Source: a virus
Taxonomy: Duplodnaviria; Caudoviricetes
DNA length: 64,000 bases
Strand: one strand, 5' to 3'
IMG/VR virus record: IMGVR_UViG_3300047157_000186
The notes beneath the pieces were generated by a model. That model was not told where the DNA came from and made no database searches. It saw only the letters and a list, made by a program, of their open reading frames with translations. Of this stretch, positions 3,801-22,083 are shown piece by piece. Position 1 is the stretch's first letter, and each line of letters begins with the position of its first letter. The position numbers and the translations under genes are program-made.

Positions 3801-4119
3801 ATTTTCATTCAGTGGTCAAAATCAACCACCAAGAGCAATTCTTGTATATGCATATCAAGCCAACAATTCAAGATACGTTATAACGCATTTAGATGGTGGT
3901 GGTAACAACGCATCATTCTATGCACAAGGTATTACAGAATCTGCACACACATCTAACTTTAGTATTGGTAATCAAGTTACAACTGATTTATTCACTAACT
4001 TCAGTGCAGCTAAAATTAAATTAGATTTAAGTATGGGTAATATTGATGCCATAAGAAATGCTGGTGGATTTGGTCAAACAACTAAAGAAGCTCACGCATT
4101 TATAATATTCAAATTTTAA
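874..4119 (+). CDS. collagen-like (Gly-X-Y) fibre protein with globular N- and C-terminal domains
   Basis: About 570 aa of near-continuous Gly-X-Y (GTS/GVD/GAK/GDQ) flanked by non-repetitive domains; GATATATA at 839-846 upstream. Confidence 0.85.
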   Translation: MPTVSNQNLIVVLPELARIVRGQSSSIGITLHQDHVGNQLNIGVTDNVIVDVYNAENQLIYSVSKSNGTLLFGAANTDLRGAISLEFSAEQTAALPFGDLNFHGAIKCKITVVRGITQTQLPTLKLANIYDAGDKIGDIVASRFTLPGAVYKVKSLSSTDKPAGGELVVNDEDPNGVTKIRIALTDDKGYRNNYLESILLNRINVDGVKVSLFLTNVNNNSEYSVFEIKSWSYVDVLNVNPSNPINNDSSDAIELQVQSEGNSFIPGSDYKIGVGDELGIFSESYSSPSGISIIPQGAVAIDDVNSLTFSGGAVINNLNDGKVEVVFPSVTVTTSGTSGSSGIDGSSGIDGAKGDQGDAGVQGEQGIRGLDGTSGKDGETGGTGAQGQDGTSGTDGTSGVDGAQGLRGLDGTSGKDGLAGTSGINGINGQAGTSGLDGAKGDDGTSGINGVNGVNGVDGAKGDQGEQGNQGPQGPKGDKGDAGAKGDIGNAGTSGISGTSGINGTSGIDGTSGVNGVDGVQGLKGDQGARGNDGTSGKDGANGVDGNHGTSGVSGSSGVDGTSGKDGINGNDGAKGDRGDQGLPGNNGNDGTSGVNGTSGVNGTSGVDGAKGDQGNIGNNGVDGTSGISGTSGIDGTSGVNGVDGNDGTSGVDGTSGINGAKGDQGDQGPKGDQGDAGANGVDGNNGTSGVSGTSGIDGTSGVNGVDGNDGTSGLSGTSGINGTSGIDGVKGDQGDAGTSGINGVKGDQGDAGTSGVDGTSGVDGGTGTSGVDGTSGINGAKGDQGDAGTSGVDGTSGVDGTSGADGGAGTSGVDGTSGINGAKGDQGDAGTSGVNGTSGTNGTSGVNGTSGINGVKGDQGDAGTSGIDGVDGANGSTGPQGPEGPQGPTGASGANGSGIAGGGTTGQALVKSSNVDYEVEWSDVATGSGGTYYCVRAEYTSTQALGGCEFIDPSGSGVFETSNATIGTRAGDNQEFSFSGQNQPPRAILVYAYQANNSRYVITHLDGGGNNASFYAQGITESAHTSNFSIGNQVTTDLFTNFSAAKIKLDLSMGNIDAIRNAGGFGQTTKEAHAFIIFKF
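1879..3585 (+). repeat. 9-bp-unit degenerate tandem repeat encoding Gly-X-Y, with longer near-identical blocks
   Basis: Recurring GGAACTTCAGGA, GGTGATCAAGGT and GGAGTTGATGGA units; a long block near 2740-2820 recurs near 2930-3010. Confidence 0.9.
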
Positions 4120-7560: not shown

Positions 7561-8772
7561 ATGAACATAGGAATTACTATAAGCTTAGGGTCAGAGAATG
7601 AAAGTCTTTGGATAAATGGTATAAAGTTAAACGCACTTTATTTATTAAAAGCCCTGAAAGAAATAGGATATAATGCATATTTATTAAATGCAAGTGAGGT
7701 CAAAGCTCCTTATGAAAACAAAGTAACATGGGACATTGAACAATTTCCAATATATGATTATTATGACAAGTATGCAGATACAGATCTTATGATTTGGTTG
7801 GGTGCAACTTATGGAGATAAAACTATAGAAGAGTTCAAGAAAACTGGTTATGGTAAAAAGGTAGTCAAGTATATTTGTGGTAATAATTATATGAATGATT
7901 TAGAAGGTTCTATGTTTAATAGTGGGCCAAATGCTACAGGATATAATCAATTATTAGATGAAGCGTGGTATGTTCCACAGCAAGGAGAATTAAACATTGA
8001 ATATTATAGAGTAATGCACAATTTACCAGCAAATAAAGTAAGGCCAGTTCCTTTTATATGGGATCCTATATTTTTAGATGATACTTGTCAAGTCTATAAT
8101 AACCCAAAAACAGTAATTGAAAATAGACCAATTCCAGTGTATGTTCCTGGAAAAGAAAATAAAGACAAACAAATTGCATGTTTTGAACCTAATATTGGCA
8201 CACAAAAATGGCACTTTATAAATTTATTAATAGCAGAAGAGTATCATAATAATGGAGGTAAATTTAAAAAATTAAATATCATGTGCGGCGAAGACATGTT
8301 AAAAAACAAATATTATCAATCTTTATTAACTCACCTTTCATTGTATAAATTATCAGGAACAAAAGATCATAAGCTATCATATCTTCCTAGATTAAGGGCT
8401 ATTGATGCCATGGCACAATTAACAGATATAGTTATTGCACATCAATATGACAATCCATTAAATTATTCATATTTAGATGCACTCTATTTACAGTTTCCAT
8501 TAGTACATAACGCAACTATGATTAAAGACGCCGGATATTATTATGATGGTAATTTAATTGGACAGGGTTCTCGACAACTTAAACAGGCTATCGAAAATCA
8601 TGACAATAACATAGAATCATATAATGAAAATAGTGAAAGAGTTTTAACTAGATATACTGTGTTTAATGATGGTTTAATAGAAACTTATAAACAATTAATT
8701 GAAACTACAATGGGAATTAAAGATCATAAATTAAGTGCTATGTATGATTGGAAAACAAATCTATATAAGTAA
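7561..8772 (+). CDS. DUF2827-like protein, probable GT-B glycosyltransferase fold
   Basis: N-terminal MNIGITI...SLWINGIKLN and C-terminal VIAHQYDNPLNYSYLDALYLQFPLVHN resemble DUF2827 proteins as I recall them. Confidence 0.55.
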   Translation: MNIGITISLGSENESLWINGIKLNALYLLKALKEIGYNAYLLNASEVKAPYENKVTWDIEQFPIYDYYDKYADTDLMIWLGATYGDKTIEEFKKTGYGKKVVKYICGNNYMNDLEGSMFNSGPNATGYNQLLDEAWYVPQQGELNIEYYRVMHNLPANKVRPVPFIWDPIFLDDTCQVYNNPKTVIENRPIPVYVPGKENKDKQIACFEPNIGTQKWHFINLLIAEEYHNNGGKFKKLNIMCGEDMLKNKYYQSLLTHLSLYKLSGTKDHKLSYLPRLRAIDAMAQLTDIVIAHQYDNPLNYSYLDALYLQFPLVHNATMIKDAGYYYDGNLIGQGSRQLKQAIENHDNNIESYNENSERVLTRYTVFNDGLIETYKQLIETTMGIKDHKLSAMYDWKTNLYK

Positions 8773-9466: not shown

Positions 9467-12190
9467 ATGTCTCAATTGAAACTAAAACAAATACTTGACT
9501 TTTTATCTTCTTCACCAACAACAGGTGAGGTATTGTCATATAATTCAAGTACCGGAAAGTATGAAAACCAACAATTACCAAACACGTTTGGTCTTCCTTA
9601 TGTTTATAATAGCGCAACAAATCCCACGACAGTTTCTTCTGGTGATTTAGCGTTTGATAATCCTAGTAATCCTAGTAAAATAATTATAAGTGAAACTAAT
9701 GCTAGAGGTGGTTCTGCAACTGTAACATTAAATGCTGCAGTCGCTTCATCGAATAATTATAAATCTATTATTGTATTAGCAAAATCAACTGACGGTAATG
9801 CAAATAAATCATTCTATGTAACAGGAAACACAACTGCTTCTGGACAAAGAACATTTAGCTTACAACCTATTTCAAGTTCTAATTGGAACAATGTTAGTGA
9901 TAATGATTCTTTGTTTATGTTTATCCAACCTATCGGTGATGTTGGAACATCAGGAACTTCAGGATCAAATGGTTCAAGTGGAAGTTCAGGAACTAATGGA
10001 ACGAGCGGTGTAAGTGGAACTTCAGGTTCTTCAGGAACTAATGGATCAAGTGGATCTTCAGGAACTAATGGAACTTCAGGAACTGATGGAACTAGCGGAT
10101 CTTCAGGTTCAAGTGGAAGTTCAGGAACAGATGGAACTTCAGGAACGAATGGAACTTCAGGTACTAATGGATCAAGTGGATCTTCAGGAACTGATGGAAC
10201 AAGTGGAGTTAAAGGTGATCAAGGTGATAATTATAGTGGAGCAACTTTATCTGGGAATAATTTAATATTGACGCATTCTGTCAATGGAGCTGAAAATGTA
10301 GGTAGAGTAGTATATGTTGGAACTTCAGGAACTGATGGTTCAAGCGGAAGTTCAGGTTCAAGCGGATCTTCAGGAATTACAGGTACAATTGCAGTAGGAA
10401 CAGTATCTACTGGTTTAGAAAATACTCCAGTAAGTGTTACTAATACTGGAACATCAACTGCAGCAGAATTTGATTTTACTATTCCTGTTGGTGCAACTGG
10501 AGCAAAAGGTGCTCCTGGAACTCCAGCTATTAATGGAACTAGTGGATCTTCTGGATCTAGTGGTGTTAAAGGAGACAAAGGAGCTCCAGGTACAAGTGGT
10601 ACTGATGGAACTTCAGGAACTAACGGAAGTTCAGGAACTGACGGTTCAAGTGGAAGTTCAGGTTCAAGTGGAAGTTCAGGAACTGATGGAACTTCAGGAA
10701 CGAATGGAACTTCAGGAACGAATGGAACTTCAGGAACTGATGGATCAAGTGGTTCTTCTGGAACTGATGGAAGTTCAGGAACTGACGGAACTTCAGGAAC
10801 GAATGGAACTTCAGGAACGAATGGAACTAGCGGATCTTCAGGTTCAAGTGGAAGTTCAGGTACTGATGGAACTTCAGGAACTAATGGAACTTCAGGAACG
10901 AATGGAACTAGTGGAACTAATGGAAGTTCAGGTTCTTCAGGAACTGACGGAACTAGTGGAACTAACGGAAGTTCAGGAACTGATGGAACTTCTGGTACAA
11001 ATGGTACAAGTGGAACGAATGGAACAAACGGAAGTTCAGGTTCTTCAGGAACAAATGGAACAAACGGATCTTCAGGATCAAGTGGATCTTCAGGTGCACA
11101 AGGTAATCCAGGTTGGGGTGTTTCAATGCAAGGACAAGTAGCTACATCATCAAATTTACCAACATCTGGTAATTCAGATGGTGATGCATATATAGTACAA
11201 TCAGACGATTCTCTTTGGGTATTTACACAAGCAGACGGTTGGATTGGCGGTGGTTCTATTCAAGGACCAGCTGGTTCTTCAGGAACTAATGGAACAAATG
11301 GAAGTTCAGGTTCTTCAGGAACTGATGGAACTTCAGGATCAAGTGGAAGTTCAGGTACTGATGGAACTTCAGGAACGAATGGAACAAGTGGAACTGATGG
11401 AACTTCAGGATCAAGTGGATCAAGTGGAAGTTCAGGTACTGATGGAACTTCAGGAACGAATGGAACAAGTGGTACTGATGGAACTTCAGGATCAAGTGGA
11501 TCAAGTGGAAGTTCAGGTACTGACGGAACCTCAGGAACGAATGGAACTTCAGGTTCTTCAGGAACTGATGGAACAAGTGGAACTAATGGAACTTCAGGAT
11601 CAAGTGGATCAAGCGGAACTTCAGGAACGAATGGAACTAGTGGAACGAATGGAACTTCAGGAACGAATGGAACTTCAGGAACGAATGGAACTTCAGGTTC
11701 TTCAGGAACGAATGGAACAAACGGATCTTCTGGATCGAGTGGTTCTTCAGGTTCTTCAGGTCTAAAAGGTAATACTGGTACTTCTAATACCTATGCAACT
11801 GCGATGAATCAACATACAAAAACAGATTCAAATGTTGAGCATCATGATTTATATTTAACAGGTGCTTTAAAAAGAGATTTTATATCTGTTAACGGTGTTG
11901 GCGGTGTTTATGACATCAAACCTGATCAAGGTGACGCATTCGTATTTACAGCAACTGGTTTAATTGATATCACAATGTCTAATATAGGTTCTGACAACGT
12001 AGGTCAATCTGGAACTATAGTAATCATAAACGGTGCAGGTGCAGGATACAATGCATTACCATCTTATATGAAAACACCTTCAGGTGCTGACATTCAATGG
12101 GTAACTACTCAAGGTGCAGTATCTATTATATCGTATATTATAATAGATGTTGACGCTGTATTAGTTAACTACATTGGAAATTTTGCGTAA
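9467..12190 (+). CDS. Gly-X-Y repeat (collagen/polyglycine-like) fibre protein
   Basis: Four Gly-X-Y segments dominated by GTS/GTN/GTD/GSS, separated by short globular inserts; GATATATA at 9431-9438 upstream. Confidence 0.85.
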   Translation: MSQLKLKQILDFLSSSPTTGEVLSYNSSTGKYENQQLPNTFGLPYVYNSATNPTTVSSGDLAFDNPSNPSKIIISETNARGGSATVTLNAAVASSNNYKSIIVLAKSTDGNANKSFYVTGNTTASGQRTFSLQPISSSNWNNVSDNDSLFMFIQPIGDVGTSGTSGSNGSSGSSGTNGTSGVSGTSGSSGTNGSSGSSGTNGTSGTDGTSGSSGSSGSSGTDGTSGTNGTSGTNGSSGSSGTDGTSGVKGDQGDNYSGATLSGNNLILTHSVNGAENVGRVVYVGTSGTDGSSGSSGSSGSSGITGTIAVGTVSTGLENTPVSVTNTGTSTAAEFDFTIPVGATGAKGAPGTPAINGTSGSSGSSGVKGDKGAPGTSGTDGTSGTNGSSGTDGSSGSSGSSGSSGTDGTSGTNGTSGTNGTSGTDGSSGSSGTDGSSGTDGTSGTNGTSGTNGTSGSSGSSGSSGTDGTSGTNGTSGTNGTSGTNGSSGSSGTDGTSGTNGSSGTDGTSGTNGTSGTNGTNGSSGSSGTNGTNGSSGSSGSSGAQGNPGWGVSMQGQVATSSNLPTSGNSDGDAYIVQSDDSLWVFTQADGWIGGGSIQGPAGSSGTNGTNGSSGSSGTDGTSGSSGSSGTDGTSGTNGTSGTDGTSGSSGSSGSSGTDGTSGTNGTSGTDGTSGSSGSSGSSGTDGTSGTNGTSGSSGTDGTSGTNGTSGSSGSSGTSGTNGTSGTNGTSGTNGTSGTNGTSGSSGTNGTNGSSGSSGSSGSSGLKGNTGTSNTYATAMNQHTKTDSNVEHHDLYLTGALKRDFISVNGVGGVYDIKPDQGDAFVFTATGLIDITMSNIGSDNVGQSGTIVIINGAGAGYNALPSYMKTPSGADIQWVTTQGAVSIISYIIIDVDAVLVNYIGNFA

Positions 12191-12215: not shown

Positions 12216-15200
12216 ATGAAGAATATAGGATTTTCAAGAATCGACTTTTGGAGTACCGGAAGTGCACAGAATACATCTAAGGGTACACTTGTAGCTAAGA
12301 ATACTACTTGGGCTACTTCTAAAACTACATCTGAAAATAGAAATACTTCGAGAACTACTGAAAAGGTACGTAATACTAGTCAATCTACAACAACAACGTG
12401 GATAACTACATGGTCAACTAGTAAATCAACTACAACAACTTTCAATACATCTCGTAGTACTAGTACTGTATATGCAACTTCAAGATCAACGACAACATCA
12501 TGGACAACATCATGGAACACATCTAGAGAAACATCTTTAGAAACTGATAGAACTACAACAACAACATGGTCGACTTCTAAAAACACGTCGCAATCAACTG
12601 AGAGAACTACAACTACTACATGGACAACTAGTTGGACAACTAGTCAATCTACATTGTACCCTGTTGAAACTACTTGGAACACAAGTCAATCCACATCTAG
12701 AACGACAACTACAGTATACACTACATATTGGACCACTTCTTGGAATACAAGTAAATCAACGATTACTTCTTATATTACTACATATACAACAACGTGGTCA
12801 ACTACTAGAGCTACGACAACGTCATATAATACAACTTGGACAACTAGTAAATCGACAACTAGATCTACTAGTCGTGACACTACAACAACTTTTAATACAA
12901 ATCAGTCAACGTCTAGAAGCACAACGACTGTATATAATACAACTTGGATTACAAGTCAGACAACGTCTAGAAGTACTGAACATTCAACAATAACTAAATT
13001 TAGTACAAGTCAGTCAACGTCTCATTCGACAACGACCGTATATAATACAACTTGGATTACAAGTCAGACAACAAGTAGAGGAACAGAACATTCGACAACG
13101 ACTACGTTTAATACAAGTCAGTCAACTACTAAATCTACGACGACTACATTTACAACAACATGGTCAACTAGCAAATCAACTTCTAGATCTACTACTAAAT
13201 CGACAACGACAACGTTTAATACAAACCAATCGACAAGTAGATCCACTAAAACAACATGGACTACTACTTGGTCGACTAGTAAATCAACATCTAAAGGAAC
13301 TACAAGAAATACCACAACAACATGGGTAACAAGTAGACCAACTGAACATACAACGACAACTACATTTAATACGACGTGGTCAACTAGTAAATCGACAACT
13401 ACTACTTTTAACACTACATGGAAAACTTCATGGAACACAACTAGAAGTACTAATCGTTCTACAACAACTACATTCAATACTAGTCAATCAACTTCGCATT
13501 CTACAACAACTGCGTGGACAACTACTTGGGTGACAAGTCAAGGAACTAGTAGAGAAACAAGTAAGAATACAACAACTAGATTTATTACTAGTAGAAGTAC
13601 AGAACATGTCACTACTACGACGTTTAATACAACATGGGCAACTAGTAAATCTACTACAACTTCATGGACTACAACTTTTGGTACAACTTTCAATACAACT
13701 AGATCTACTAATAAAAGTACAACGACTACGTTTAATACAACATGGTCAACTAGTAGAGCAACAACAACTTCATGGACAACTTCATGGAACACAACTGTAC
13801 TGACTTCCAGATCTACTTATAAAAACACAACGACTACGTTTAATACAACATGGTCAACTAGCAGATCGACAACGACAACGTTTAATACGACTAGATCAAC
13901 TACGACTACATTTAATACAAGTCAATCAACTAATAAGAATACAACAACTAGTTGGAATACGACTAGATCAACGACAACGACTTGGAACACAACTAGGGCT
14001 ACGACGACTGTATATAATACATCATGGAATACAACTAAGTCAACGACGACTACGTTCAATACAACTAGGTCAACAACAACGACGTTTAATACAAATAAGT
14101 CAACGACAACTGTATTTAATACATCTTGGAATACAACTAGATCTACTACAACTACATTTGCAACCAGTAAATCGACAACAACAACATTTGTAACTAGTAG
14201 AGGTACAGAACATTCGACAACAACAACTTATAATACAACTAGATCTACATCAACTAGTTGGAATACAACTAAGTCAACAACGACTGTGTATAATACTTCA
14301 TGGAATACAACTAAGTCAACGACAACAACGTTTTCAACTAGTAAATCGACGACAACAACGTTTTCAACTAGCCAATCAACTAATAAGAATACGACAACAA
14401 CGTTTAATACGACTAGATCTACATTAACTACATGGATTACAAGTAGATCAACTGAACGTGTGACAACAACAACATGGAATACAACGCGTTCAACAACGAC
14501 TACGTTTAATACAACGCGTTCAACAACGACTACGTTTGCAACTAGTAAATCTACAACGACTACGTTTAATACATCTTGGAATACAAGTAAGAATACAACA
14601 ACAACGTTTGCAACGAGTAAATCCACTAGAACTACTTGGACAACTTCATGGAACACTGCGCGAAATACAACGACAACATGGAATACAACTAAGTCAACGA
14701 CAACTACGTTTGCAACAAGTAGAGGTACATCACGTGCTACGACAACAACATGGATAACTAGTAAGAATACAACGACAACGTTTGCAACTAGTAAATCTAC
14801 AACGACAACGTTTGCAACTAGTAAATCTACGACAACAACATATAAAACAAGTTGGAATACTGCAATATCAACGACAACAACATTTGCCACGTCTAGAGTA
14901 ACTGATAGAAATACTAGTAAATCGACAACAACAACGTTTAATACTGGATACTCTAGATCAACAACTAAATCAACATCATGGAGTACATTAGTTCCTGCAG
15001 ATAATAGTTCAGGTGGAGGTGCAGGTGTTTTGACTTATTGGAACACAACAGTTACATATAACACATCTTTTTCAACCGCGTTATACGTCAATACATCTAG
15101 AGGAACTTCTAGAAACACTGTTGAAGAATGTATAGTTGAAGGAACACTAGTTCATATTGCCGAAGGTGAACAAAGACTAGTTGAAACTTTAGTACATGGT

Positions 15201-15665
15201 CAAAGTATTTTAACTATGGATGGATCGTTTAATGTAGATAACGTTAGTGATTTAAGTCTTATCAGAGAAGAAGAAGTATACACGAATTCATTATCTAATG
15301 AACATACTGCTGTAAATATTTGGAGAGCAGATGTTATAGGAACGGTTAATATAAATGACGGACAATTAAGAACTACCATGGGACACATACACATCATAAA
15401 AAGAGATGGTGAGTGGCAAGCAAGGACAGCGGATCAGTTAGAAATTGGTGATGTTATGTTTAAGCTTGACTATGGAGAATTTTTGATAGAGTCTTTAGAA
15501 ATGGATGAAGTTAATCAATATACAGTTTATAAATTAGACGTAGAACCTAACGATACATTCTTTGCAAATGGAATTTTAACACATAATAAAAAAGATGCAT
15601 TATGTTCACACGAGGATAAATGTACGCGAGGGCATCCATGTGAGGATAGATTTTACCCTTGTTAA
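12216..15665 (+). CDS. giant Thr-rich repeat protein with C-terminal Hint (intein-like) domain
   Basis: About 900 aa of STTTT(F/W)NT(T/S)(R/K)-type repeats, then CIVEGTLV...TTMGH...VYKLDVEPNDTFFANGILTHN and a 25-aa Cys-rich tail. Confidence 0.85.
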   Translation: MKNIGFSRIDFWSTGSAQNTSKGTLVAKNTTWATSKTTSENRNTSRTTEKVRNTSQSTTTTWITTWSTSKSTTTTFNTSRSTSTVYATSRSTTTSWTTSWNTSRETSLETDRTTTTTWSTSKNTSQSTERTTTTTWTTSWTTSQSTLYPVETTWNTSQSTSRTTTTVYTTYWTTSWNTSKSTITSYITTYTTTWSTTRATTTSYNTTWTTSKSTTRSTSRDTTTTFNTNQSTSRSTTTVYNTTWITSQTTSRSTEHSTITKFSTSQSTSHSTTTVYNTTWITSQTTSRGTEHSTTTTFNTSQSTTKSTTTTFTTTWSTSKSTSRSTTKSTTTTFNTNQSTSRSTKTTWTTTWSTSKSTSKGTTRNTTTTWVTSRPTEHTTTTTFNTTWSTSKSTTTTFNTTWKTSWNTTRSTNRSTTTTFNTSQSTSHSTTTAWTTTWVTSQGTSRETSKNTTTRFITSRSTEHVTTTTFNTTWATSKSTTTSWTTTFGTTFNTTRSTNKSTTTTFNTTWSTSRATTTSWTTSWNTTVLTSRSTYKNTTTTFNTTWSTSRSTTTTFNTTRSTTTTFNTSQSTNKNTTTSWNTTRSTTTTWNTTRATTTVYNTSWNTTKSTTTTFNTTRSTTTTFNTNKSTTTVFNTSWNTTRSTTTTFATSKSTTTTFVTSRGTEHSTTTTYNTTRSTSTSWNTTKSTTTVYNTSWNTTKSTTTTFSTSKSTTTTFSTSQSTNKNTTTTFNTTRSTLTTWITSRSTERVTTTTWNTTRSTTTTFNTTRSTTTTFATSKSTTTTFNTSWNTSKNTTTTFATSKSTRTTWTTSWNTARNTTTTWNTTKSTTTTFATSRGTSRATTTTWITSKNTTTTFATSKSTTTTFATSKSTTTTYKTSWNTAISTTTTFATSRVTDRNTSKSTTTTFNTGYSRSTTKSTSWSTLVPADNSSGGGAGVLTYWNTTVTYNTSFSTALYVNTSRGTSRNTVEECIVEGTLVHIAEGEQRLVETLVHGQSILTMDGSFNVDNVSDLSLIREEEVYTNSLSNEHTAVNIWRADVIGTVNINDGQLRTTMGHIHIIKRDGEWQARTADQLEIGDVMFKLDYGEFLIESLEMDEVNQYTVYKLDVEPNDTFFANGILTHNKKDALCSHEDKCTRGHPCEDRFYPC
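15129..15587 (+). other. Hint / bacterial intein-like domain, no homing endonuclease
   Basis: Cys1, block B TxxH (TMGH), block F (VYKLDVEPNDTFFANGI) and terminal His-Asn; about 153 aa. Confidence 0.85.
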
Positions 15666-15724
15666 TAGAGAATAATCTAGAAGATAAAGAAATGAAATAT
15701 ATAAAAAAATAACAGAGATAGAAA

Positions 15725-18649
15725 ATGCCTACTACTTATTTTAATACAACATGGTTAACTGCTGGCTCTAGAAATACGTACGTATCTACTACAAAGACTA
15801 GGTCTACTTCCAGATACACGTCATATAATAGGGTAACTTCGAGAAATACGGCGAAGACTACATATTGGAACGTAAGTACAAGTAAGGCAACGACAACATC
15901 ATGGACTACTAAAGTTACTACTTCATGGAACACAACTAGGGGAACAACGACATCGAGAAGCACAAACCAACAAACATCTCATGCAACAACAACTACATGG
16001 AATACAACTAGAGCTACAACGACTACATGGAATACAACTAGAACAACCGAAACAAAATGGAACACAACTAAGTCAACGACTACATCATTTAATACATCTT
16101 GGAATACAACTCGAGCTACAACTACAACGTTTGCAACTAGTAAGGCAACGGCAACAACATTTAGTACAAGTCAGTCAACTGCTAAAGACACAACGACAAC
16201 ATGGAATACAACTAGAGCAACATTAACAACATGGGTCACAAGTAGATCAACTGAACGTGCTACGACAACAACATGGAATACAACTCGAGCTACGACAACA
16301 ACGTTCAATACAACTCGTGCAACGACAACTACATTTGCAACTAGTAAATCGACAACGACTGTATTTAATACATCTTGGAATACAAGTAAGAATACGACTA
16401 CTACATTTGCAACTAGTAAATCCACTAGAACTACTTGGACAACTTCATGGAATACAACTCGAGCTACAACTACAACGTTTAATACAACTCGAGCTACAAC
16501 TACCACGTGGTCTACAAGTCAGTCAACGTCTCATTCGACAACGACTACGTTTGTAACTAGTAAAAATACAACGACTACGTTTAAAACTAGTAAATCAACG
16601 ACTACATCGTATAACACATCTTGGAATACAACTAGGTCAACGACAACAACGTTTAATACTTCCAAGTCAACAACGACTACGTTTATAACTAGTAGGTCAA
16701 CAGAGCGTGTTACTACAACTACATGGGCAACTAGTAAATCTACGACTACTACATTTGCAACAAGTAAATCTACTACAACAACATTTGTAACTAGTAGAGG
16801 AACAGAACATTCCACGACTACTACATTTGCAACTAGTAAATCGACAACAACTACGTTTATAACTAGCCAGTCAACTAGAACTACTTGGACTACAACATGG
16901 TCAACTAATAGATCAACGACAACAACGTTCAATACAACTCGTGCAACGACAACTACATTTAACACAAGTCAATCGACAAGTAAATCCACTAAAACAACAT
17001 GGACAACTTCTTGGAATACTGTCAGAGGAACTAGTAAAGTAACTAGTAAATCGACAACGACTACGTTTAACACAAGTCAATCGACGAGTAGAGCAACTAC
17101 AACAACATGGACTACTACTTGGGCAACATCAAGAAATACAACTAGAGGAACTAGTAAAACGACAACGACTACGTTTAACACAAGTCAATCGACTGAAAGA
17201 GAAACGACTACTGTTTATAACACGTCATGGAACACAACGAGAACTACGATAACTTCATACACTACTTCATGGACTACTTCATGGAATACAAGTAGAGGCA
17301 CATCGAAAACTACAACAACAGTTTATAATACATCATGGTCAACTAGTAAATCAACTGTAACTACATTCAATACTACTTGGATAACAAATCAGAATACAAC
17401 GAGATCTACTTCTAGAACAACAACTACTACTTTTAATACAAGTCAGTCAACTTCTAGAACAACGACTACGTCGTATAACACATCTTGGAACACTACAAGA
17501 TCCACTGAAACTGCATGGACTACTTCATGGGTGACAACGTTTAATACAAACAGGTCAACGTATAAAAATACAACGACTACGTTTACAACAACATGGTCAA
17601 CTAGTAAATCTACAACGACTACGTTTACAACTACGTTCACAACAACGTTTAATACTAATCAGTCAACAAGTAAATCTACAACGACTACATTTAATACAAC
17701 GTGGTCAACTAGTAGAGCAACGACTACGAGTTATACAACTTCATGGACTACTTCATGGAACACAACTAGAGGAACAGAACATGTGACTACTACTGTTTAT
17801 AACACGTCATGGAACACAACTAGATCGACAACTACAGTTTACAATACTTCATGGACAACTTCATGGAACACAACTAGAGGAACAGAACATTCGACTACGA
17901 CTACGTTTACAACAACATGGTCAACTAGTAAATCAACTGTAACTACGTTCAACACTACTTGGACTACGTCATGGAACACAACTTATGGAACGTCTCATTC
18001 AACTACGACAACGTTTAATACGTCTCAGTCTACAAATCATGGAACGTCTCATTCGACAGTAACTATATGGAGTACATCTAGAGGAACTAACAAAGGAACA
18101 GAACACGCAACGACAACTGCATGGACAACGACTTGGGAAACTAGTAGAATTACGAACTATTCACGTACGACATCATGGACTACGCAATATCAAACTAGTC
18201 AGTCAACGGTAACTACATTTAACACAACGTGGTTAACAACATTTAATACCAATCAGTCAACAACAACTGCATGGGTGACATCGTGGGTGACAACATTTAG
18301 TACGTCTCAAACAACGTCTAAAACGACAACGACTACATTTAACACAAGTCACTCGACAACGACAACGTTTAATACGACTAGATCAACTACGACTACATTC
18401 AATACGAATGCAGCTACATCTAAATCGACAACGACAACGTGGTCAACTATTTATAGTGTTACTACTTCGTGGAATACTGCATGGAACACAACAACAACGT
18501 GGAACACGACGAGATCTACAACAAGTGCTATTACTACAACGTGGAGTACAGATTACGAAGTGCAAGAAACTTGGTATTCAACTAACGCACCATTAGATGT
18601 TTATAATACAAATAGACAATGGAGAGTAAACAGTTATAACGGTAACTAG
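15725..18649 (+). CDS. giant Thr-rich repeat protein, paralogue of 12216..15665
   Basis: Same 10-residue-type Thr/aromatic/basic repeat over nearly the whole 974 aa; AATATATA at 15696-15703 upstream. Confidence 0.85.
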   Translation: MPTTYFNTTWLTAGSRNTYVSTTKTRSTSRYTSYNRVTSRNTAKTTYWNVSTSKATTTSWTTKVTTSWNTTRGTTTSRSTNQQTSHATTTTWNTTRATTTTWNTTRTTETKWNTTKSTTTSFNTSWNTTRATTTTFATSKATATTFSTSQSTAKDTTTTWNTTRATLTTWVTSRSTERATTTTWNTTRATTTTFNTTRATTTTFATSKSTTTVFNTSWNTSKNTTTTFATSKSTRTTWTTSWNTTRATTTTFNTTRATTTTWSTSQSTSHSTTTTFVTSKNTTTTFKTSKSTTTSYNTSWNTTRSTTTTFNTSKSTTTTFITSRSTERVTTTTWATSKSTTTTFATSKSTTTTFVTSRGTEHSTTTTFATSKSTTTTFITSQSTRTTWTTTWSTNRSTTTTFNTTRATTTTFNTSQSTSKSTKTTWTTSWNTVRGTSKVTSKSTTTTFNTSQSTSRATTTTWTTTWATSRNTTRGTSKTTTTTFNTSQSTERETTTVYNTSWNTTRTTITSYTTSWTTSWNTSRGTSKTTTTVYNTSWSTSKSTVTTFNTTWITNQNTTRSTSRTTTTTFNTSQSTSRTTTTSYNTSWNTTRSTETAWTTSWVTTFNTNRSTYKNTTTTFTTTWSTSKSTTTTFTTTFTTTFNTNQSTSKSTTTTFNTTWSTSRATTTSYTTSWTTSWNTTRGTEHVTTTVYNTSWNTTRSTTTVYNTSWTTSWNTTRGTEHSTTTTFTTTWSTSKSTVTTFNTTWTTSWNTTYGTSHSTTTTFNTSQSTNHGTSHSTVTIWSTSRGTNKGTEHATTTAWTTTWETSRITNYSRTTSWTTQYQTSQSTVTTFNTTWLTTFNTNQSTTTAWVTSWVTTFSTSQTTSKTTTTTFNTSHSTTTTFNTTRSTTTTFNTNAATSKSTTTTWSTIYSVTTSWNTAWNTTTTWNTTRSTTSAITTTWSTDYEVQETWYSTNAPLDVYNTNRQWRVNSYNGN

Positions 18650-18667
18650 AAATAACTCAATTAATTT

Positions 18668-18697
18668 AAAAAGCATACTTCGGTATGCTTTTTTTTT
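18668..18697 (+). terminator. Rho-independent terminator with UUCG loop
   Basis: AAAAAGCATAC-TTCG-GTATGCTTTTTTTTT. Confidence 0.9.
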
Positions 18698-18771: not shown

Positions 18772-19683
18772 ATGGAAATGTTTAACAAAAAGGTTCTAGA
18801 TGAAAGAATTGGGCCTCTAAAGAAAAACACAAAATTAGAACCGCTTGAACAAGTAGAGCGATACGTTTTAAGAAAATGTAGAGAACTTGGATTAGAACAC
18901 AGTTATGATGTTATAGCAGAAGAAATGCCATACTTCAAAACAATGGGATATACAGAATATGCCACTTGTTTTTTACTGCAACCACTAAACCTTAAAATGA
19001 GAAGAGAACAAGTAGCCGACGCTTTAGCACATGATGTCGAACACGTTTCTGATTGGGTATCTTATTTTAGAGAAAACATAGAAAAAGACCAAGCTAATAA
19101 ATATCAAAAGCGCAACAAAGACTTCGACAGATATGAAGATAAAAGCACTTTGGTTATTTTACCAGGTTCAAATAAGCTTAAAGAAAACTGTTGTTTAAAT
19201 AAATTAATTGAAGTTGCTGATAAACACAAAGGTGATGTTTATTTTAAACCACATCCTATTACTACACATGCAGTCATAGGCGAAATTAAAGATTTATTTG
19301 GTGAAGAATCTATTTTACCTAGAGACATAGATCTTTATTACTTTTTACAAAAAGCTAAAACAGTATATAGCACACATATTAGTGAAAGCGCATTATATTC
19401 TGTTGTCCTTGAAAAAGAAGTTTATCCAATGGATGTGTGGAATAATATAAGTAGAGGATCTTTTTATACTATAAACTCCAGTCTTTATGATAATAAAGAA
19501 AGAGGCGCAGAATGGATTAATCAAGTATTTTCTAGTTACAAATCTGGAATTATAAATCCAGCTATTGATGAAGATTGGAAAGGTAAAGTAGATGATTACA
19601 TGAATTATATGTATGAAAAAAGAGAATATTACAAAGGTTGGTTTATAGACGCTCCACCTAAAGTTAAAAGAAATAAGAACTAA
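18772..19683 (+). CDS. capsule polysaccharide biosynthesis (KpsS/KpsC-like) GT-B protein
   Basis: VYFKPHP motif followed by LYYFLQKAKTVYSTHISESALYSVVLEKEV, the pattern of a GT-B C-terminal Rossmann domain. Confidence 0.5.
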   Translation: MEMFNKKVLDERIGPLKKNTKLEPLEQVERYVLRKCRELGLEHSYDVIAEEMPYFKTMGYTEYATCFLLQPLNLKMRREQVADALAHDVEHVSDWVSYFRENIEKDQANKYQKRNKDFDRYEDKSTLVILPGSNKLKENCCLNKLIEVADKHKGDVYFKPHPITTHAVIGEIKDLFGEESILPRDIDLYYFLQKAKTVYSTHISESALYSVVLEKEVYPMDVWNNISRGSFYTINSSLYDNKERGAEWINQVFSSYKSGIINPAIDEDWKGKVDDYMNYMYEKREYYKGWFIDAPPKVKRNKN

Positions 19684-19693
19684 ATTATAAATT

Positions 19694-19720
19694 AAACCTA
19701 CACTCGTGTGGGTTTTTTTT
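19694..19720 (+). terminator. Rho-independent terminator
   Basis: AAACCTACAC...GTGTGGGTTT plus a T-tract. Confidence 0.7.
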
Positions 19721-19732
19721 GCTACATTAATA

Positions 19733-20752
19733 ATGAGAATATTATTTTATGCGGGCTATCAAAAGAATAAATTTGATGGTGATACAAATGAAGGATTAGC
19801 AGGAACTGAAATTGCTATAATTAATATAGCCGAAGAGATGGTTAAATTTGGTTATAAGGTTGTGGTTTCTGGTGAAGTAAAAGATTCTGGTTTAATTAAT
19901 GGAGTAGAATGGATATCAACACATGAATTACATGAAAAATATTTTGATCAGTTTGATTATATTATATCTGCAAGTTATATTCATTTTTTAAAAGAGTTTG
20001 AAAAATATTCAGCAAAGAAAGTATTTTGGGCACATAATACACATCATCACCCATGGTGGAATCACGAAGTGTTAGAAGACGCAAACCTTTTAACACAACA
20101 AGTTGATCATACAATTTGTTTGACTAATTGGCATAAGAATCACTGGGCACATACATATAATATACCTTTAAATAAAATCTCGGTGATTGGTAATGCCATT
20201 GATCCTTCAACATTTAGTGGTACTCCTGAAAAAGTTAAAGGTAAATTCATATATAGTTCTGCACCCGAACGTGGCTTATTGGAATTATTAAAAAACTGGC
20301 CAAAGATAAAAACTATAATGCCACATGCAACACTAGACATTTATTCTCCTGGATATTCTATAGCAAATCATACTGACTATTCATTTAATAAGTTTAAAGA
20401 AGTAACATGTCACGGTAGTGTAGATCAAAAAACATTACATAATGCCATGCTACGTGCAGAATATTGGTGTTATATAACTGATTATGAAGAAACATATTGT
20501 ATAACTGCACTTGAAATGCAATATGCCAAAGTATTACCTATTGTTACTAAAGTTGCTGCATTAAAAGAAACTGTAAATAGTGGAGTTATCTTAGAAAGAA
20601 ATGAAACAAATTGGAATCAGGCTATACAAATACTAGGTACACTAAGTAGTGGACTTAAGGATAAATCAATTAATGATGCATATAAATGGTCTAAACAACA
20701 AACATGGAATGTTAGATCATATGATTGGAAAAACATATTAGAATCTATATGA
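19733..20752 (+). CDS. GT-B glycosyltransferase (GT4-like)
   Basis: FIYSSAPERGL and EETYCITALEMQ (E-x7-E); ATG 19733 preferred over GTG 19706, which lies inside the terminator. Confidence 0.85.
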   Translation: MRILFYAGYQKNKFDGDTNEGLAGTEIAIINIAEEMVKFGYKVVVSGEVKDSGLINGVEWISTHELHEKYFDQFDYIISASYIHFLKEFEKYSAKKVFWAHNTHHHPWWNHEVLEDANLLTQQVDHTICLTNWHKNHWAHTYNIPLNKISVIGNAIDPSTFSGTPEKVKGKFIYSSAPERGLLELLKNWPKIKTIMPHATLDIYSPGYSIANHTDYSFNKFKEVTCHGSVDQKTLHNAMLRAEYWCYITDYEETYCITALEMQYAKVLPIVTKVAALKETVNSGVILERNETNWNQAIQILGTLSSGLKDKSINDAYKWSKQQTWNVRSYDWKNILESI

Positions 20753-22083
20753 AAATAGATAAAATTTATATTATAAGCTTGAACGCTGGAGATCCAAGCA
20801 TTCAAAGAAGTATTGCCGAGAGGGTAGATCAACTTGGTATGCCATATTCTGTAGCGTGGGAAATAGTTCAAGGTTTTGATGGAACTTCAGGCAATTTATT
20901 AGATGGACACAGTGTATATAATTTATGGAATTTAGGATCTGATTCATGGAATGATTGGTGGAAAAGAGATGTTACTGGCGGAGAAGCAGGTTGTGCAATT
21001 AGTCACTTAAATATATGGAAAAATATAATAGAAGACAATATCAATTGTGCATTAATACTAGAAGATGATTTTGTTTCAGTAGCTCCACTTACAAATCCAG
21101 TTATTCCAAACACAGAATGGGATATTGCATTTTTAGGTAGAAATGCTATATGTCCTAAGGATGAAAAAAGAATTGATGTAAGTAATAAATGGGTAACAGC
21201 ACTTAGTAGTTATAATACACATGCATATGTAATTAAAAGAGACGCTGCGAAAACGCTAGTCAATGATTACAACTTTCAACAAAATCTAATTGCGCCCGAT
21301 GAATTCTTAACGGCAACATATACAGATCATAGAAGACAAGATATTAATATACTGTTTCCACCAAAACTTAAAGCGATAGCTCCAGTTAATAATTGGATAG
21401 AACAAAATAGACCACACGAAAAATCCACGACAGAACCAAATGATGCCAATATTAATTTATTGAAAAAACAACCTTATTTCGAAATACTAGATGACAGTGA
21501 TTGGGATTCATGGAAATCAAAGTATGTAAACGAAACAGTGGCTAAGGGTGAATATGATTTAATGATAGATGATATAGGAAATAATATATATGAATTTCCA
21601 TTATTTACCGAAAAGTTCTGTAAAGAAGCAGTTGCTTTAGCAGAGGTTATGAATAAGTGGACAAAAGATAGACATGAATTTTATCCAACAAATGATGTCT
21701 TATTACCAGAAATAGGATTAGATAATATTTATAATAGAGTTATAAAAGAAATAGTTTCCCCACTTTGTATACATTTATGGGAATTAGAAGGTGCAGGTTG
21801 GGATAATATGAATACCGAAAACTTTATGGTAAGATATACTACTGATAGACAATCTCATTTAAGTTTACATCATGACTTTAGTCATATTACAATGGTAGTA
21901 AAATTAAATGATGAGTTTGATGGTGGCGGCACGTGGTTTCCAAAATATAAAATATTAGCAAATCCAAAATTAGTAGGTACTGCAACTATTCACCCTGGAA
22001 TGATCACACATAAACATGGTGCCAGACCAATACATAGTGGGAAAAGATACATCAACGTATCATTTATGAGAAAGAATAATTAA
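20749..22083 (+). CDS. GT25-family glycosyltransferase fused to a PLOD-type 2OG-Fe(II) lysyl hydroxylase domain
   Basis: N-terminal IYIISLN, GEAGCAISHLNIWKNI, ALILEDD; C-terminal FMVRY...LHHDFS...GGGTWF...HPGMITHKHG...RYINVSF; ATGA overlap with the upstream gene. Confidence 0.85.
   Translation: MKIDKIYIISLNAGDPSIQRSIAERVDQLGMPYSVAWEIVQGFDGTSGNLLDGHSVYNLWNLGSDSWNDWWKRDVTGGEAGCAISHLNIWKNIIEDNINCALILEDDFVSVAPLTNPVIPNTEWDIAFLGRNAICPKDEKRIDVSNKWVTALSSYNTHAYVIKRDAAKTLVNDYNFQQNLIAPDEFLTATYTDHRRQDINILFPPKLKAIAPVNNWIEQNRPHEKSTTEPNDANINLLKKQPYFEILDDSDWDSWKSKYVNETVAKGEYDLMIDDIGNNIYEFPLFTEKFCKEAVALAEVMNKWTKDRHEFYPTNDVLLPEIGLDNIYNRVIKEIVSPLCIHLWELEGAGWDNMNTENFMVRYTTDRQSHLSLHHDFSHITMVVKLNDEFDGGGTWFPKYKILANPKLVGTATIHPGMITHKHGARPIHSGKRYINVSFMRKNN

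What the first reader, a model, noticed from the sequence alone, without database searches (positions are those of the whole stretch)
12216..18649. Pair of ~1000-aa Thr-rich proteins with a strict two-faced repeat code
Seen: roughly half of the residues are Thr, and Pro, Gly and Asp are nearly absent from the repeats. In the core 10-mer T-T-T-T-F-N-T-T-R-S, large residues (F/W/Y and R/K/H/Q/E) recur only at even spacings of 4 or 6. They therefore fall on one face of a beta-strand, leaving the other face as T/S/N only. Synonymous codons vary widely, so selection acts on the protein rather than on a DNA repeat. Established: flat regular Thr arrays form the ice-binding faces of insect and bacterial antifreeze/ice-nucleation beta-solenoids, whereas mucin-like regions are Pro-rich and irregular. 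Inference: a new beta-fibre with an aromatic/cation core and a Thr surface, possibly ice-binding or a glycan scaffold.
Basis: partly seen in the sequence, partly recalled or inferred. Interest (0 to 1): 0.85.

Follow-up and report, generated by a model that had tools for sequence, protein, structure and literature searches.

The report
Mirror-coded two-gene phage fibre duplex
Two adjacent genes of a marine phage encode threonine-rich proteins that match each other residue by residue when one is read backwards (aromatic opposite basic, Thr opposite Thr, over about 930 positions without a gap), which points to a previously undescribed way of building a long two-chain fibre.

Summary
Both ORFs (1149 and 974 aa) are 45% Thr, with almost no Pro, Gly or Asp. 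Large residues keep one parity over about 900 residues.

The main result is new. P1 and P2 are complementary in antiparallel register. At i+j=962, with no gap, 187 of about 212 possible aromatic-to-basic pairs form, against 7 like-with-like pairs, and Thr faces Thr 309 times (unit-shuffle null 46±5, z=26). A finer code holds: H pairs only with Y, Q only with W, and F with R/K.

Sixteen A/B gene pairs from IMG/VR phages show the same complementarity. The cognate partner is best in 15 of 16. Repeat lengths are matched (r=0.975). Indels are compensated at mirrored sites (24↔24 and 10↔10 aa versus L038). Single-gene relatives are self-complementary hairpins with the turn at mid-protein.

Gene A ends in a self-cleaving domain at the inferred distal tip: Hint here, Peptidase_S74 in a sister clade. 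The cassette always follows a fibre gene.

Best reading: a phage fibre shaft built as an antiparallel two-chain beta ribbon. The ice-binding and mucin readings are not supported. No 3D model succeeded. An earlier scan note on other DNA (e1-5378796) had seen the intramolecular form.

The parts
9467..12190 (+). Collagen-like fibre protein (907 aa). Its C-terminal domain ends in ...VLVNYIGNFA. This is the conserved fibre gene that precedes gene A.
   Evidence: Pfam Collagen E 7e-70 and tail-fibre PHROGs. A protein ending in NY(I/V)G(N/D)F lies directly upstream of gene A in 16 of 18 pairs. No terminator-like site lies between its end and P1.
12216..15131 (+). Gene A (P1), residues 1-972 up to the Hint cysteine. 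It has the N-terminal motif MKNIGFSRIDFW, then the Thr-rich mirror-coded strand. Residues 1-961 face P2 residues 961-1.
15129..15587 (+). Hint (bacterial-intein-like) self-processing domain of P1, residues 972-1124. It has Cys1, the TxxH histidine and a terminal THN. The +1 residue is Lys.
   Evidence: A 32-sequence profile hits PDB 6y75/6tmm at E 7e-17, 2lwy 'bacterial intein-like domain' at 1e-9, and inteins. The key residues are invariant. 656 homologues were found, with the domain almost always at the extreme C-terminus.
15588..15665 (+). 25-residue tail of P1 after the Hint domain, with four Cys, plus the stop codon.
   Evidence: The tail is conserved in the closest relatives (P0027, P0028, P0029).
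15725..18649 (+). Gene B (P2, 974 aa), the complementary Thr-rich strand, with no extra domain.
14463..16324 (+). Mosaic patch, about 75% nt identity to the nearest relative against 93-100% elsewhere in the two genes. It covers P1 residues ~750-1149 and P2 residues 1-200, which include the two segments that face each other in the duplex.
   Evidence: with the register.
18668..18693 (+). Terminator-like hairpin (11-bp stem, then a T run) just after P2.
18772..19683 (+). 'MEMFN' protein (303 aa, phrog_26179), the invariable downstream partner of the cassette. Its function is unknown.
   Evidence: 42 distinct copies occur in the loci fetched by the Thr motif. It lies downstream of gene B in 18 of 18 pairs. 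555 homologues with no Pfam annotation among those listed. A 25-26% identical homologue sits in the same position in Caulobacter phages Lullwater and Cr30.

Best explanation
P1 (gene A) and P2 (gene B) are the two strands of one long phage fibre shaft.

Shown from sequence: read antiparallel at the single register i+j=962, P2 is the class complement of P1 over about 930 residues without a gap. Aromatic faces basic, Thr faces Thr, and small faces small.

Inferred:
- The two chains lie side by side as an extended antiparallel beta ribbon. One face alternates aromatic-cation pairs (F-R/K, W-K/R/Q, Y-H) with Thr-Thr pairs. The other face carries only small polar residues and probably packs against further ribbons.
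- The N-terminus of A and the C-terminus of B sit at the virion-proximal end, probably docked on the C-terminal knob of the collagen-like fibre protein encoded just upstream.
- The C-terminus of A and the N-terminus of B form the distal tip. The Hint domain of A sits there and removes itself after assembly. A Peptidase_S74 intramolecular chaperone does this at the same position in a sister clade.

By analogy only: three such duplexes form a six-stranded shaft, as the partner proteins are trimeric. The shaft would be up to about 300 nm long and strongly cationic, and would make first contact with anionic surface glycans of a marine host.
For: Complementarity in the window pair:
- 187 aromatic-basic pairs, 6 aromatic-aromatic, 1 basic-basic and 309 Thr-Thr at i+j=962.
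- The second-best offset gives 101 and the best parallel offset 56.
- Unit-shuffled P2 gives 46.4±5.4 (maximum 70), so z=26.

Pair-type code: Y-H 17, W-Q 28, W-K 33, W-R 32, F-R 48, F-K 23, chi-square p=2e-36. The same rules hold in other clades.

Family-wide covariation:
- All 16 A/B pairs are complementary, 0.36-0.93 of the maximum.
- The cognate partner is best in 15 of 16 rows. Non-cognate pairs score about 0.2-0.5, apart from close relatives.
- Repeat lengths of A and B correlate at r=0.975 over 443-1149 aa.
- Block order is mirrored.

Compensatory changes:
- Against L038, the 24-aa and 10-aa indels in A are matched by 24-aa and 10-aa indels in B at mirrored places.
- Against L006, T886F is matched by T76R, and coincident class changes have p=0.004.

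Hairpin topology: single-gene relatives are self-complementary with the turn at mid-protein. So are the C-terminal ~570 residues of DLP_6-type baseplate-wedge proteins.

Fibre context:
- The cassette follows a fibre gene ending in NY(I/V)G.F.
- In the sister clade, the C-terminus of A is Peptidase_S74 in 10 of 10 members, best E 5e-6, and matches tail-fibre PHROG C-termini.
- The IMC of T5 and K1F trimerises at the distal tip and is removed by autoproteolysis (PMC10579305).
- The Thr module is fused to baseplate or virion N-terminal domains in P0008, P0023 and P0024.

Real genes: dN/dS 0.28-0.29, and identical contigs occur in marine RNA libraries.
Against: - No structure supports it. AF2 on a P1 slice with a pseudo-alignment gave pLDDT 42. 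Its weak model is a meander of 7-residue strands, not an extended strand.
- The pairing is inferred from sequence statistics only. It does not tell an edge-to-edge beta ladder from face-to-face packing of two sheets.
- A ~300-nm two-stranded ribbon has no precedent that I know of.
- Stoichiometry, trimer formation, presence in the virion and the docking site are untested.
- Three pairs (L013, L056, L057) reach only 0.36-0.53 without gaps and need small register steps, some of them odd.
- One RNA-library contig lacks one 10-residue unit of P1 (30 nt at 14768), with no matching gap seen in P2.
- The A/B pairs are not all phylogenetically independent; I estimate about 10 lineages.
Confidence: 0.7

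Rival explanations
1. Ice-binding or ice-nucleating beta-solenoid with a flat Thr array.
For: The proteins are 45% Thr, and T-x-T motifs are everywhere. The only Foldseek PDB row is an Antarctic ice-binding protein, but at E=3.4 and TM 0.13, which is not a match.
Against: - The unit lengths are irregular (4, 10, 14, 18), so there is no constant coil.
- The invariant Thr residues share their face with Trp, Phe, Arg and Lys.
- There is no family or fold hit.
- The module is always in a fibre cassette.
- The phage is seen in marine runs from 19 studies. Relatives of the module occur in phages of Caulobacter and Stenotrophomonas.
- This reading does not explain the A/B complementarity.
Confidence: 0.02
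2. Extended, largely unfolded, heavily O-glycosylated mucin-like or serine-rich-repeat-like scaffold, modified by the neighbouring glycosyltransferases.
For: - Thr plus Ser make up 60% of the repeats.
- GT4, GT25-2OG and DUF2827 genes lie nearby in the window.
- The conserved MEMFN protein has two weak leads to CMP-sugar transferases: polysialyltransferase at E 0.019, and a feature-search link to Capsule_synth clusters at 0.95.
Against: - The repeats hold 10-12% conserved aromatic residues and almost no Pro.
- Length is fixed between relatives, with no indels at 90% identity.
- A residue-level pairing code with compensatory indels implies a defined structure.
- The GT genes are absent from most cassettes.
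- PF05159 does not match the MEMFN gene of G001 even at E 10. Profile searches of MEMFN found nothing.
- Glycosylation of the small face on top of a folded duplex remains possible.
Confidence: 0.08
3. Each protein folds on its own as a beta-meander or solenoid, as in the weak AF2 model. The mirror relation between A and B is a by-product of repeat evolution, not a physical contact.
For: The AF2 model of a P1 slice is all-beta, with strands at TTTTFNT and turns at T(R/K)S. Neighbouring repeats on DNA tend to resemble each other.
Against: - The model has pLDDT 42.
- DNA proximity cannot explain why the N-terminus of A matches the C-terminus of B.
- It cannot explain class swapping (aromatic to basic) rather than similarity, or partner exclusivity (H with Y, Q with W).
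- It cannot explain cognate specificity or equal-size indels at mirrored sites.
- There is no inverted DNA repeat: all blastn matches between the genes are on the same strand.
Confidence: 0.07
4. The A/B duplex is real but is not a virion fibre. It could be, for example, a polycationic injected or nucleic-acid- or surface-binding protein.
For: pI is 10-12 and the net charge is up to +71 per chain. There are no virion proteomics.
Against: The position after fibre genes is constant. An S74 chaperone sits at the C-terminus of A in the sister clade. The module is fused to baseplate-wedge and virion-protein N-terminal domains.
Confidence: 0.08

Closest known systems
Needle domain of the T4 long tail fibre tip gp37 (Bartual et al. 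2010, as described in PMC9659904)
   Same: [quoted passage not shown] The single-gene relatives here have the same out-and-back topology by sequence.
   Different: From memory, the T4 needle is short (about 15 nm) and held by HxH iron sites, and it is one gene. Here no H-x-H motif is visible in the repeat sequences. Instead there is a repeat code of aromatic-cation and Thr-Thr pairs over about 930 residues, split over two genes. Sequence searches found no solved relative.
Tail fibres and spikes capped by a C-terminal intramolecular chaperone (Peptidase_S74; T5 pb1 4UW8, K1F endosialidase 1V0E; PMC10579305)
   Same: A self-cleaving domain sits at the distal C-terminus of the fibre chain. The sister clade of gene A carries a true S74 domain.
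   Different: In the window that position holds a Hint domain instead. The shaft is not a known triple beta-helix sequence type.
Bacterial intein-like (BIL) and Hedgehog-type Hint domains (PDB 2LWY; 6Y75/6TMM)
   Same: Cys1, the TxxH histidine and the terminal His-Asn are present, with profile E values of 1e-9 to 7e-17.
   Different: There is no +1 nucleophile, so splicing is not expected. Its use as the end cap of a phage fibre protein is a context I know no report of.
Cross-strand aromatic-cation pairs in designed beta-hairpins (my own recall, not checked here)
   Same: The chemistry proposed for the large-residue face is the same.
   Different: Those are peptides of 12-16 residues. Here the pairs recur about 190 times between two natural proteins.
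Silk fibroin (GAGAGS)n two-faced beta strands (my own recall)
   Same: There is strict two-residue periodicity, which gives two chemically different sheet faces.
   Different: The composition is different. Silk has no partner-specific register code and is not a two-gene complementary pair.
Insect and bacterial ice-binding or ice-nucleation beta-solenoids
   Same: They are Thr-rich and carry T-x-T motifs.
   Different: They have a constant coil length and a pure Thr/Ser flat face. Neither is met here.

Membership tests
Hint / bacterial intein-like domain (C-terminal domain of P1) | N-terminal Cys or Ser nucleophile | tested here: met
   Cys972 of P1. The cysteine is nearly invariant in the 32-sequence alignment.
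Hint / bacterial intein-like domain (C-terminal domain of P1) | Block B TxxH and terminal His-Asn | tested here: met
   TTMGH and THN are present. The block B His and the terminal His-Asn are invariant. Profile hits to 2lwy at 1e-9 and 6y75 at 7e-17.
Splicing intein | Cys, Ser or Thr at +1 after His-Asn, and an extein to be joined | tested here: not met
   The +1 residue is Lys here. Among 150 relatives it is almost never Cys, Ser or Thr, and most end 1-10 residues after HN.
Peptidase_S74 intramolecular chaperone | S-D-x-x-x-K cleavage motif and a match to PF13884 | tested here: not met
   It is absent from P1. It is present in gene A of the sister clade (FSDRRLKKNI...GVMADEV), with 10 of 10 members matching, best E 5e-6, and at least one above the gathering score.
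Ice-binding / ice-nucleation beta-solenoid | Constant coil period that puts T-x-T in a flat array | tested here: not met
   Units of 4, 10, 14 and 18 residues occur in irregular order. Thr shares its face with W, F, R and K.
Ice-binding / ice-nucleation beta-solenoid | Family or fold match | tested here: not met
   No Pfam, PDB-sequence or Foldseek match.
Ice-binding / ice-nucleation beta-solenoid | Ice activity | not testable with these tools
   This needs thermal hysteresis or nucleation assays.
Mucin-like / serine-rich-repeat glycoprotein | Disordered Pro/Ser/Thr-rich repeats of variable number, with a dedicated glycosyltransferase | tested here: not met
   Pro is 0.1-0.2% and conserved aromatic residues 10-12%. 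Lengths are identical in relatives. The GT genes are not conserved in the cassette.
T4 gp37-type out-and-back fibre needle | Chain runs to the tip and returns antiparallel | tested here: inconclusive
   Sequence complementarity with i+j constant was found in two-chain and one-chain forms. No structure is available.
T4 gp37-type out-and-back fibre needle | HxH metal sites; sequence similarity | tested here: not met
   His is about 1% of the repeats and pairs with Tyr. No H-x-H motif is visible in the repeat sequences. No PDB sequence hit.
Phage tail-fibre cassette (fibre gene, then accessory or distal component) | Position directly after a fibre gene, in a structural module | tested here: met
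   Upstream are collagen-like and tail-fibre PHROG proteins. The arrangement is conserved in 16 of 18 pairs. Lullwater gp40 'tail fiber protein' is followed by Thr-rich gp41 and the MEMFN homologue gp42.

The most novel reading that the evidence does not exclude
This would be a new class of fibrous protein architecture: a protein 'duplex'. Two chains, or the two arms of one chain, recognise each other through a positional residue code (Thr-Thr, F-R/K, W-K/R/Q, Y-H, and on the other face N-S and E-N). The irregular sequence of unit lengths acts as an address that sets a single register over up to about 1100 residues and makes each phage's A and B specific for each other.

A further step: in the Hint clade, the thioester formed at Glu971-Cys972 lies next to the N-terminus of P2. 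It could be resolved by that amine, joining A to B into one closed hairpin. That would be a natural protein ligation used for fibre assembly.
Probability: 0.45. Interest if true: 0.95.

Novelty: categorically new. Interest (0 to 1): 0.9.

Why it matters
Fibrous proteins are understood through a few sequence codes, such as the coiled-coil heptad, the collagen triplet and the solenoid coil. A code that pairs two different chains residue by residue in one register over hundreds of residues would be a new entry in that list. The partner rules are simple enough to read from sequence, so it could become a design principle for long, addressable protein ribbons.

For phage biology, it defines a widespread and so far unannotated fibre module. 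It occurs in about 100 IMG/VR contigs. Its partner protein has more than 555 homologues, many in marine data. Relatives exist in cultured Stenotrophomonas and Caulobacter phages, where it can be tested.

It also gives a role to C-terminal Hint domains, as an alternative to the S74 chaperone. And it explains why the two genes must recombine and gain or lose repeats together.

Tried and rejected
- AF2 of P1 900-1149 as a single sequence gave pLDDT 30 and was unusable.
- AF2 of P1 560-759 with a pseudo-alignment of internal repeats gave pLDDT 42 and pTM 0.36, so no topology was taken from it.
- Foldseek with that model against PDB and BFVD found nothing at E≤0.001.
- Complex prediction on three copies of P1 560-759 gave no verdict (score 0.00, pLDDT 29). 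In hindsight this was the wrong partner.
- tblastn of P2 against the phage collection found no match.
- megablast of 20 kb of the window found no match.
- The nearest huge phage by helicase, LR756500.1, has no P2 match.
- PDB sequence searches with a P2 slice and with P0008 found nothing.
- The function of the MEMFN protein stays open. The PDB profile search, Pfam scans of 23 members and PF05159 against G001 were all negative. Only two weak leads to CMP-sugar transferases remain.
- A PDB profile search with the sister-clade C-terminal domain was not significant. Pfam S74 was.
- Literature searches for Thr-rich phage fibres, cation-pi hairpin fibres and DLP6 found no description of this module. 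The library lacks most subscription journals, so prior description is not excluded.
- A DNA-level palindrome as a trivial cause was rejected. All blastn matches between the two genes are same-strand, and by the codon table the reverse complement of Thr codons does not encode Thr.

Full report
**Setting**

The window is phage DNA. All genes lie on the + strand and GC is about 31%. It carries a baseplate wedge gene, a helicase and collagen-like tail-fibre genes. The helicase is closest to a 462-kb uncultured phage (46% aa) and to the Lak megaphages (31%).

The genome itself is not held. The nearest record, G001 (IMGVR_UViG_3300025870_001343), carries the same locus. The flanking genes are found in 20 seawater, marine and viral metagenome or metatranscriptome runs from 19 studies. 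Contigs from two RNA libraries match parts of both genes without a difference, which shows presence in those libraries but not transcription.

**The observation**

P1 (12216-15665, 1149 aa) and P2 (15725-18649, 974 aa) are 45% Thr in their repeat parts, with almost no Pro, Gly or Asp.

Large residues keep one parity:
- 79-82% of nearest-neighbour spacings are even, against 43% in shuffles.
- The phase never slips over about 900 residues.

The grammar is ([aromatic or basic]-x-T-x)n followed by T-T. This gives units of 4, 10, 14 and 18 residues, with Thr invariant two residues after the aromatic that opens each unit. The units build super-repeats of 24, 34, 36 and 58 residues.

Synonymous sites among units are close to random (0.42 against about 0.37 expected). 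dN/dS against the nearest relative is 0.28-0.29.

**What the proteins are attached to**

P1 ends in a Hint domain, residues 972-1124:
- Cys1, the TxxH histidine and the terminal His-Asn are invariant.
- The profile hits a solved bacterial intein-like domain at 1e-9 and another Hint domain at 7e-17.
- There is no +1 nucleophile.
- A 25-residue four-Cys tail follows.

The 656 relatives of this domain sit at the very C-terminus of proteins of many kinds. The closest ones again carry Thr-rich repeats and the N-terminal motif MKNIGFQKIxxWNT.

Distant hits of P2 are Thr-rich modules fused to phage baseplate-wedge or virion-protein N-terminal domains. They include the 1288-aa 'baseplate wedge subunit' of Stenotrophomonas phage DLP_6.

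**A conserved cassette**

A DNA pattern for one 10-mer plus the next aromatic found 111 stretches in about 100 IMG/VR contigs. Nearly all encode ORFs of 200-1700 aa with 40-54% Thr, about 10% aromatic residues, almost no Pro and the same parity.

The gene order recurs:
1. A fibre protein ending in ...NY(I/V)G(N/D)F.
2. Thr-rich gene A.
3. Sometimes one small ORF.
4. Thr-rich gene B.
5. A 300-aa protein starting MEMFN, which is window 18772-19683.

Gene A ends in one of three ways:
- a Hint domain (window, L035, L038);
- a Peptidase_S74 intramolecular chaperone, in 10 of 10 members, with the motif FSDRRLKKNI...GVMADEV;
- a Gly-run followed by Cys.

S74 domains trimerise at the distal tip of fibres and then cut themselves off (PMC10579305). 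Two different self-cleaving domains thus occupy the same place.

Minimal versions of the cassette exist in cultured phages:
- Caulobacter phage Lullwater: gp40 'tail fiber protein', gp41 (216 aa, Thr-rich), gp42 (MEMFN homologue).
- Caulobacter phage Cr30: gp253, gp254, gp255.

In the window, no terminator-like site lies between the end of the collagen-like gene and P2. A strong one follows P2.

**The main result: A and B are complementary**

An earlier scan note on another genome (e1-5378796) described an intramolecular 'mirror code', so I tested P1 against reversed P2.

At i+j=962, without any gap, over residues 1-961:
- 88 aromatic residues of P1 face basic residues (R/K/H/Q) of P2, and 99 basic residues face aromatic ones.
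- That is 187 pairs of about 212 possible.
- There are only 6 aromatic-aromatic pairs and 1 basic-basic pair.
- Thr faces Thr 309 times.
- The next best offset gives 101 and the best parallel offset 56.
- Shuffling the units of P2 gives 46±5, so z=26.

The partners are specific: His pairs only with Tyr (17), Gln only with Trp (28), and Phe with Arg or Lys (71). The chi-square p is 2e-36. On the small face, Asn faces Ser and Glu faces Asn. At registers shifted by ±2, every large residue faces a Thr.

**Covariation across the family**

- The orthologous pair in L006 has the same register, with 185 pairs.
- All 16 A/B pairs are complementary in antiparallel. The cognate B is the best partner of A in 15 of 16 cases, at 0.64-0.93 of the maximum for most pairs. 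Unrelated pairs reach about 0.2-0.5.
- Three pairs need small register steps.
- The repeat lengths of A and B track each other from 443 to 1149 residues: r=0.975, ratio 0.97±0.06.
- The order of repeat types in B mirrors that in A at both ends.
- A and B of one phage share their spectrum of unit lengths.
- Against L038, P1 has a 24-aa and a 10-aa window-only segment. P2 has a 10-aa and a 24-aa one. By i+j=962 these map onto each other.
- Against L006, a T-to-F change in P1 faces a T-to-R change in P2. Seven changes remove large residues that had no partner.
- The one strongly diverged patch between the window and L006 covers the C-terminal part of P1 and the first 200 residues of P2. These segments include the two stretches that pair, and they are adjacent on the DNA.

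**Hairpin relatives**

Single Thr-rich genes are self-complementary with the turn at mid-protein, for example:
- L048: 759 aa, 63 complementary pairs against 1 like pair.
- L053: 67 pairs.
- L088: 75 pairs.

The turn is either short or holds an inserted tip domain. In nine DLP_6-type proteins the last ~570 residues form such a hairpin around ...YTNPGLS.... The two-gene form is therefore a hairpin split at its tip, with the tip domain and the self-cleaving cap on the C-terminus of A.

**Reading**

Shown: a residue-level antiparallel complementarity under selection, inside a fibre cassette.

Inferred:
- The chains form an extended antiparallel beta ribbon. The composition is made of strong beta formers, and side chains at i and c-i lie on one face of an antiparallel pair (textbook knowledge).
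- The small face packs, and the large face is exposed. Each chain carries +62 to +71 net charge with under 2% acidic residues.

By analogy: the bundle is threefold, because the upstream collagen-like protein and the S74 domain are trimeric. This would give a six-stranded shaft like the T4 gp37 needle (PMC9659904), but up to about 300 nm long.

Function as a polycationic, aromatic-rich adhesion fibre is a guess.

**What is not supported**

Ice binding is not supported. There is no constant coil and no pure Thr face. No family or fold hit was found. The module is also widespread outside any obvious cold setting.

A disordered mucin-like scaffold is also not supported. Glycosylation of the small face cannot be excluded. 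The role of the MEMFN protein stays open.

**Limits**

No confident 3D model was obtained. The literature library is incomplete.

Noticed in passing
window 18772-19683: The 'MEMFN' protein (303 aa, phrog_26179) follows gene B in every cassette. Copies are about 40-75% identical to the window protein across very different phages, with many invariant His, Asp, Glu and Cys residues (for example FKPHPxTTH). It has 555 homologues, many from marine and Tara data, with no Pfam annotation among those listed. There are only weak leads to CMP-sugar glycosyltransferases. It could be an enzyme or an assembly factor for the duplex.
   Followed up: partly
window 20725-22083, 19706-20752 and 7561-8772: GT25 plus 2OG-oxygenase fusion, GT4 and DUF2827 genes lie next to collagen-like fibre genes. 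They may form a collagen-type modification set. They are not part of the conserved Thr-rich cassette in other phages.
   Followed up: no
L040:2830-3396 and L066:3784-4812 (sister clades): The ORF between gene A and gene B (about 188 aa or about 350 aa) has weak similarity to SAM-dependent methyltransferases or spermidine synthase (E 0.004-0.006). No such gene lies between P1 and P2 in the window.
   Followed up: partly
window 14768 (P1 residues ~851-860): One metatranscriptome contig lacks exactly 30 nt, which is one 10-residue unit. Another contig of the same run covers the mirrored part of P2 without a gap. This is either a strain mixture, an assembly collapse in a repeat, or an uncompensated variant.
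   Followed up: no
L052, L066 and L080 (gene A C-terminus): A third clade of gene A ends ...GGGGGGC(S/F)RGC(I/Q), exactly where the Hint clade has its Gly-run and Cys1. An overlapping ~350-aa ORF follows. This may be a remnant or a replacement of the Hint cap.
   Followed up: no
window 15588-15662: The 25-residue tail after the Hint His-Asn has four Cys (CSHEDKCTRGHPCEDRFYPC). It is conserved in the closest relatives (P0027-P0029). It could be released by Asn cyclisation. Its role is unknown.
   Followed up: no
window 9467-12190, last ~100 aa: The C-terminal domain of the collagen-like protein (...VLVNYIGNFA) resembles by eye the C-termini of Lullwater gp40 and Cr30 gp253. It is the likely docking site for the proximal end of the duplex. 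No Pfam or PHROG family matches it.
   Followed up: partly
window 874-4119 and 9467-12190: Two long collagen-like proteins are built mostly of GTS, GSS, GTN and GTD triplets with very little Pro.
   Followed up: no
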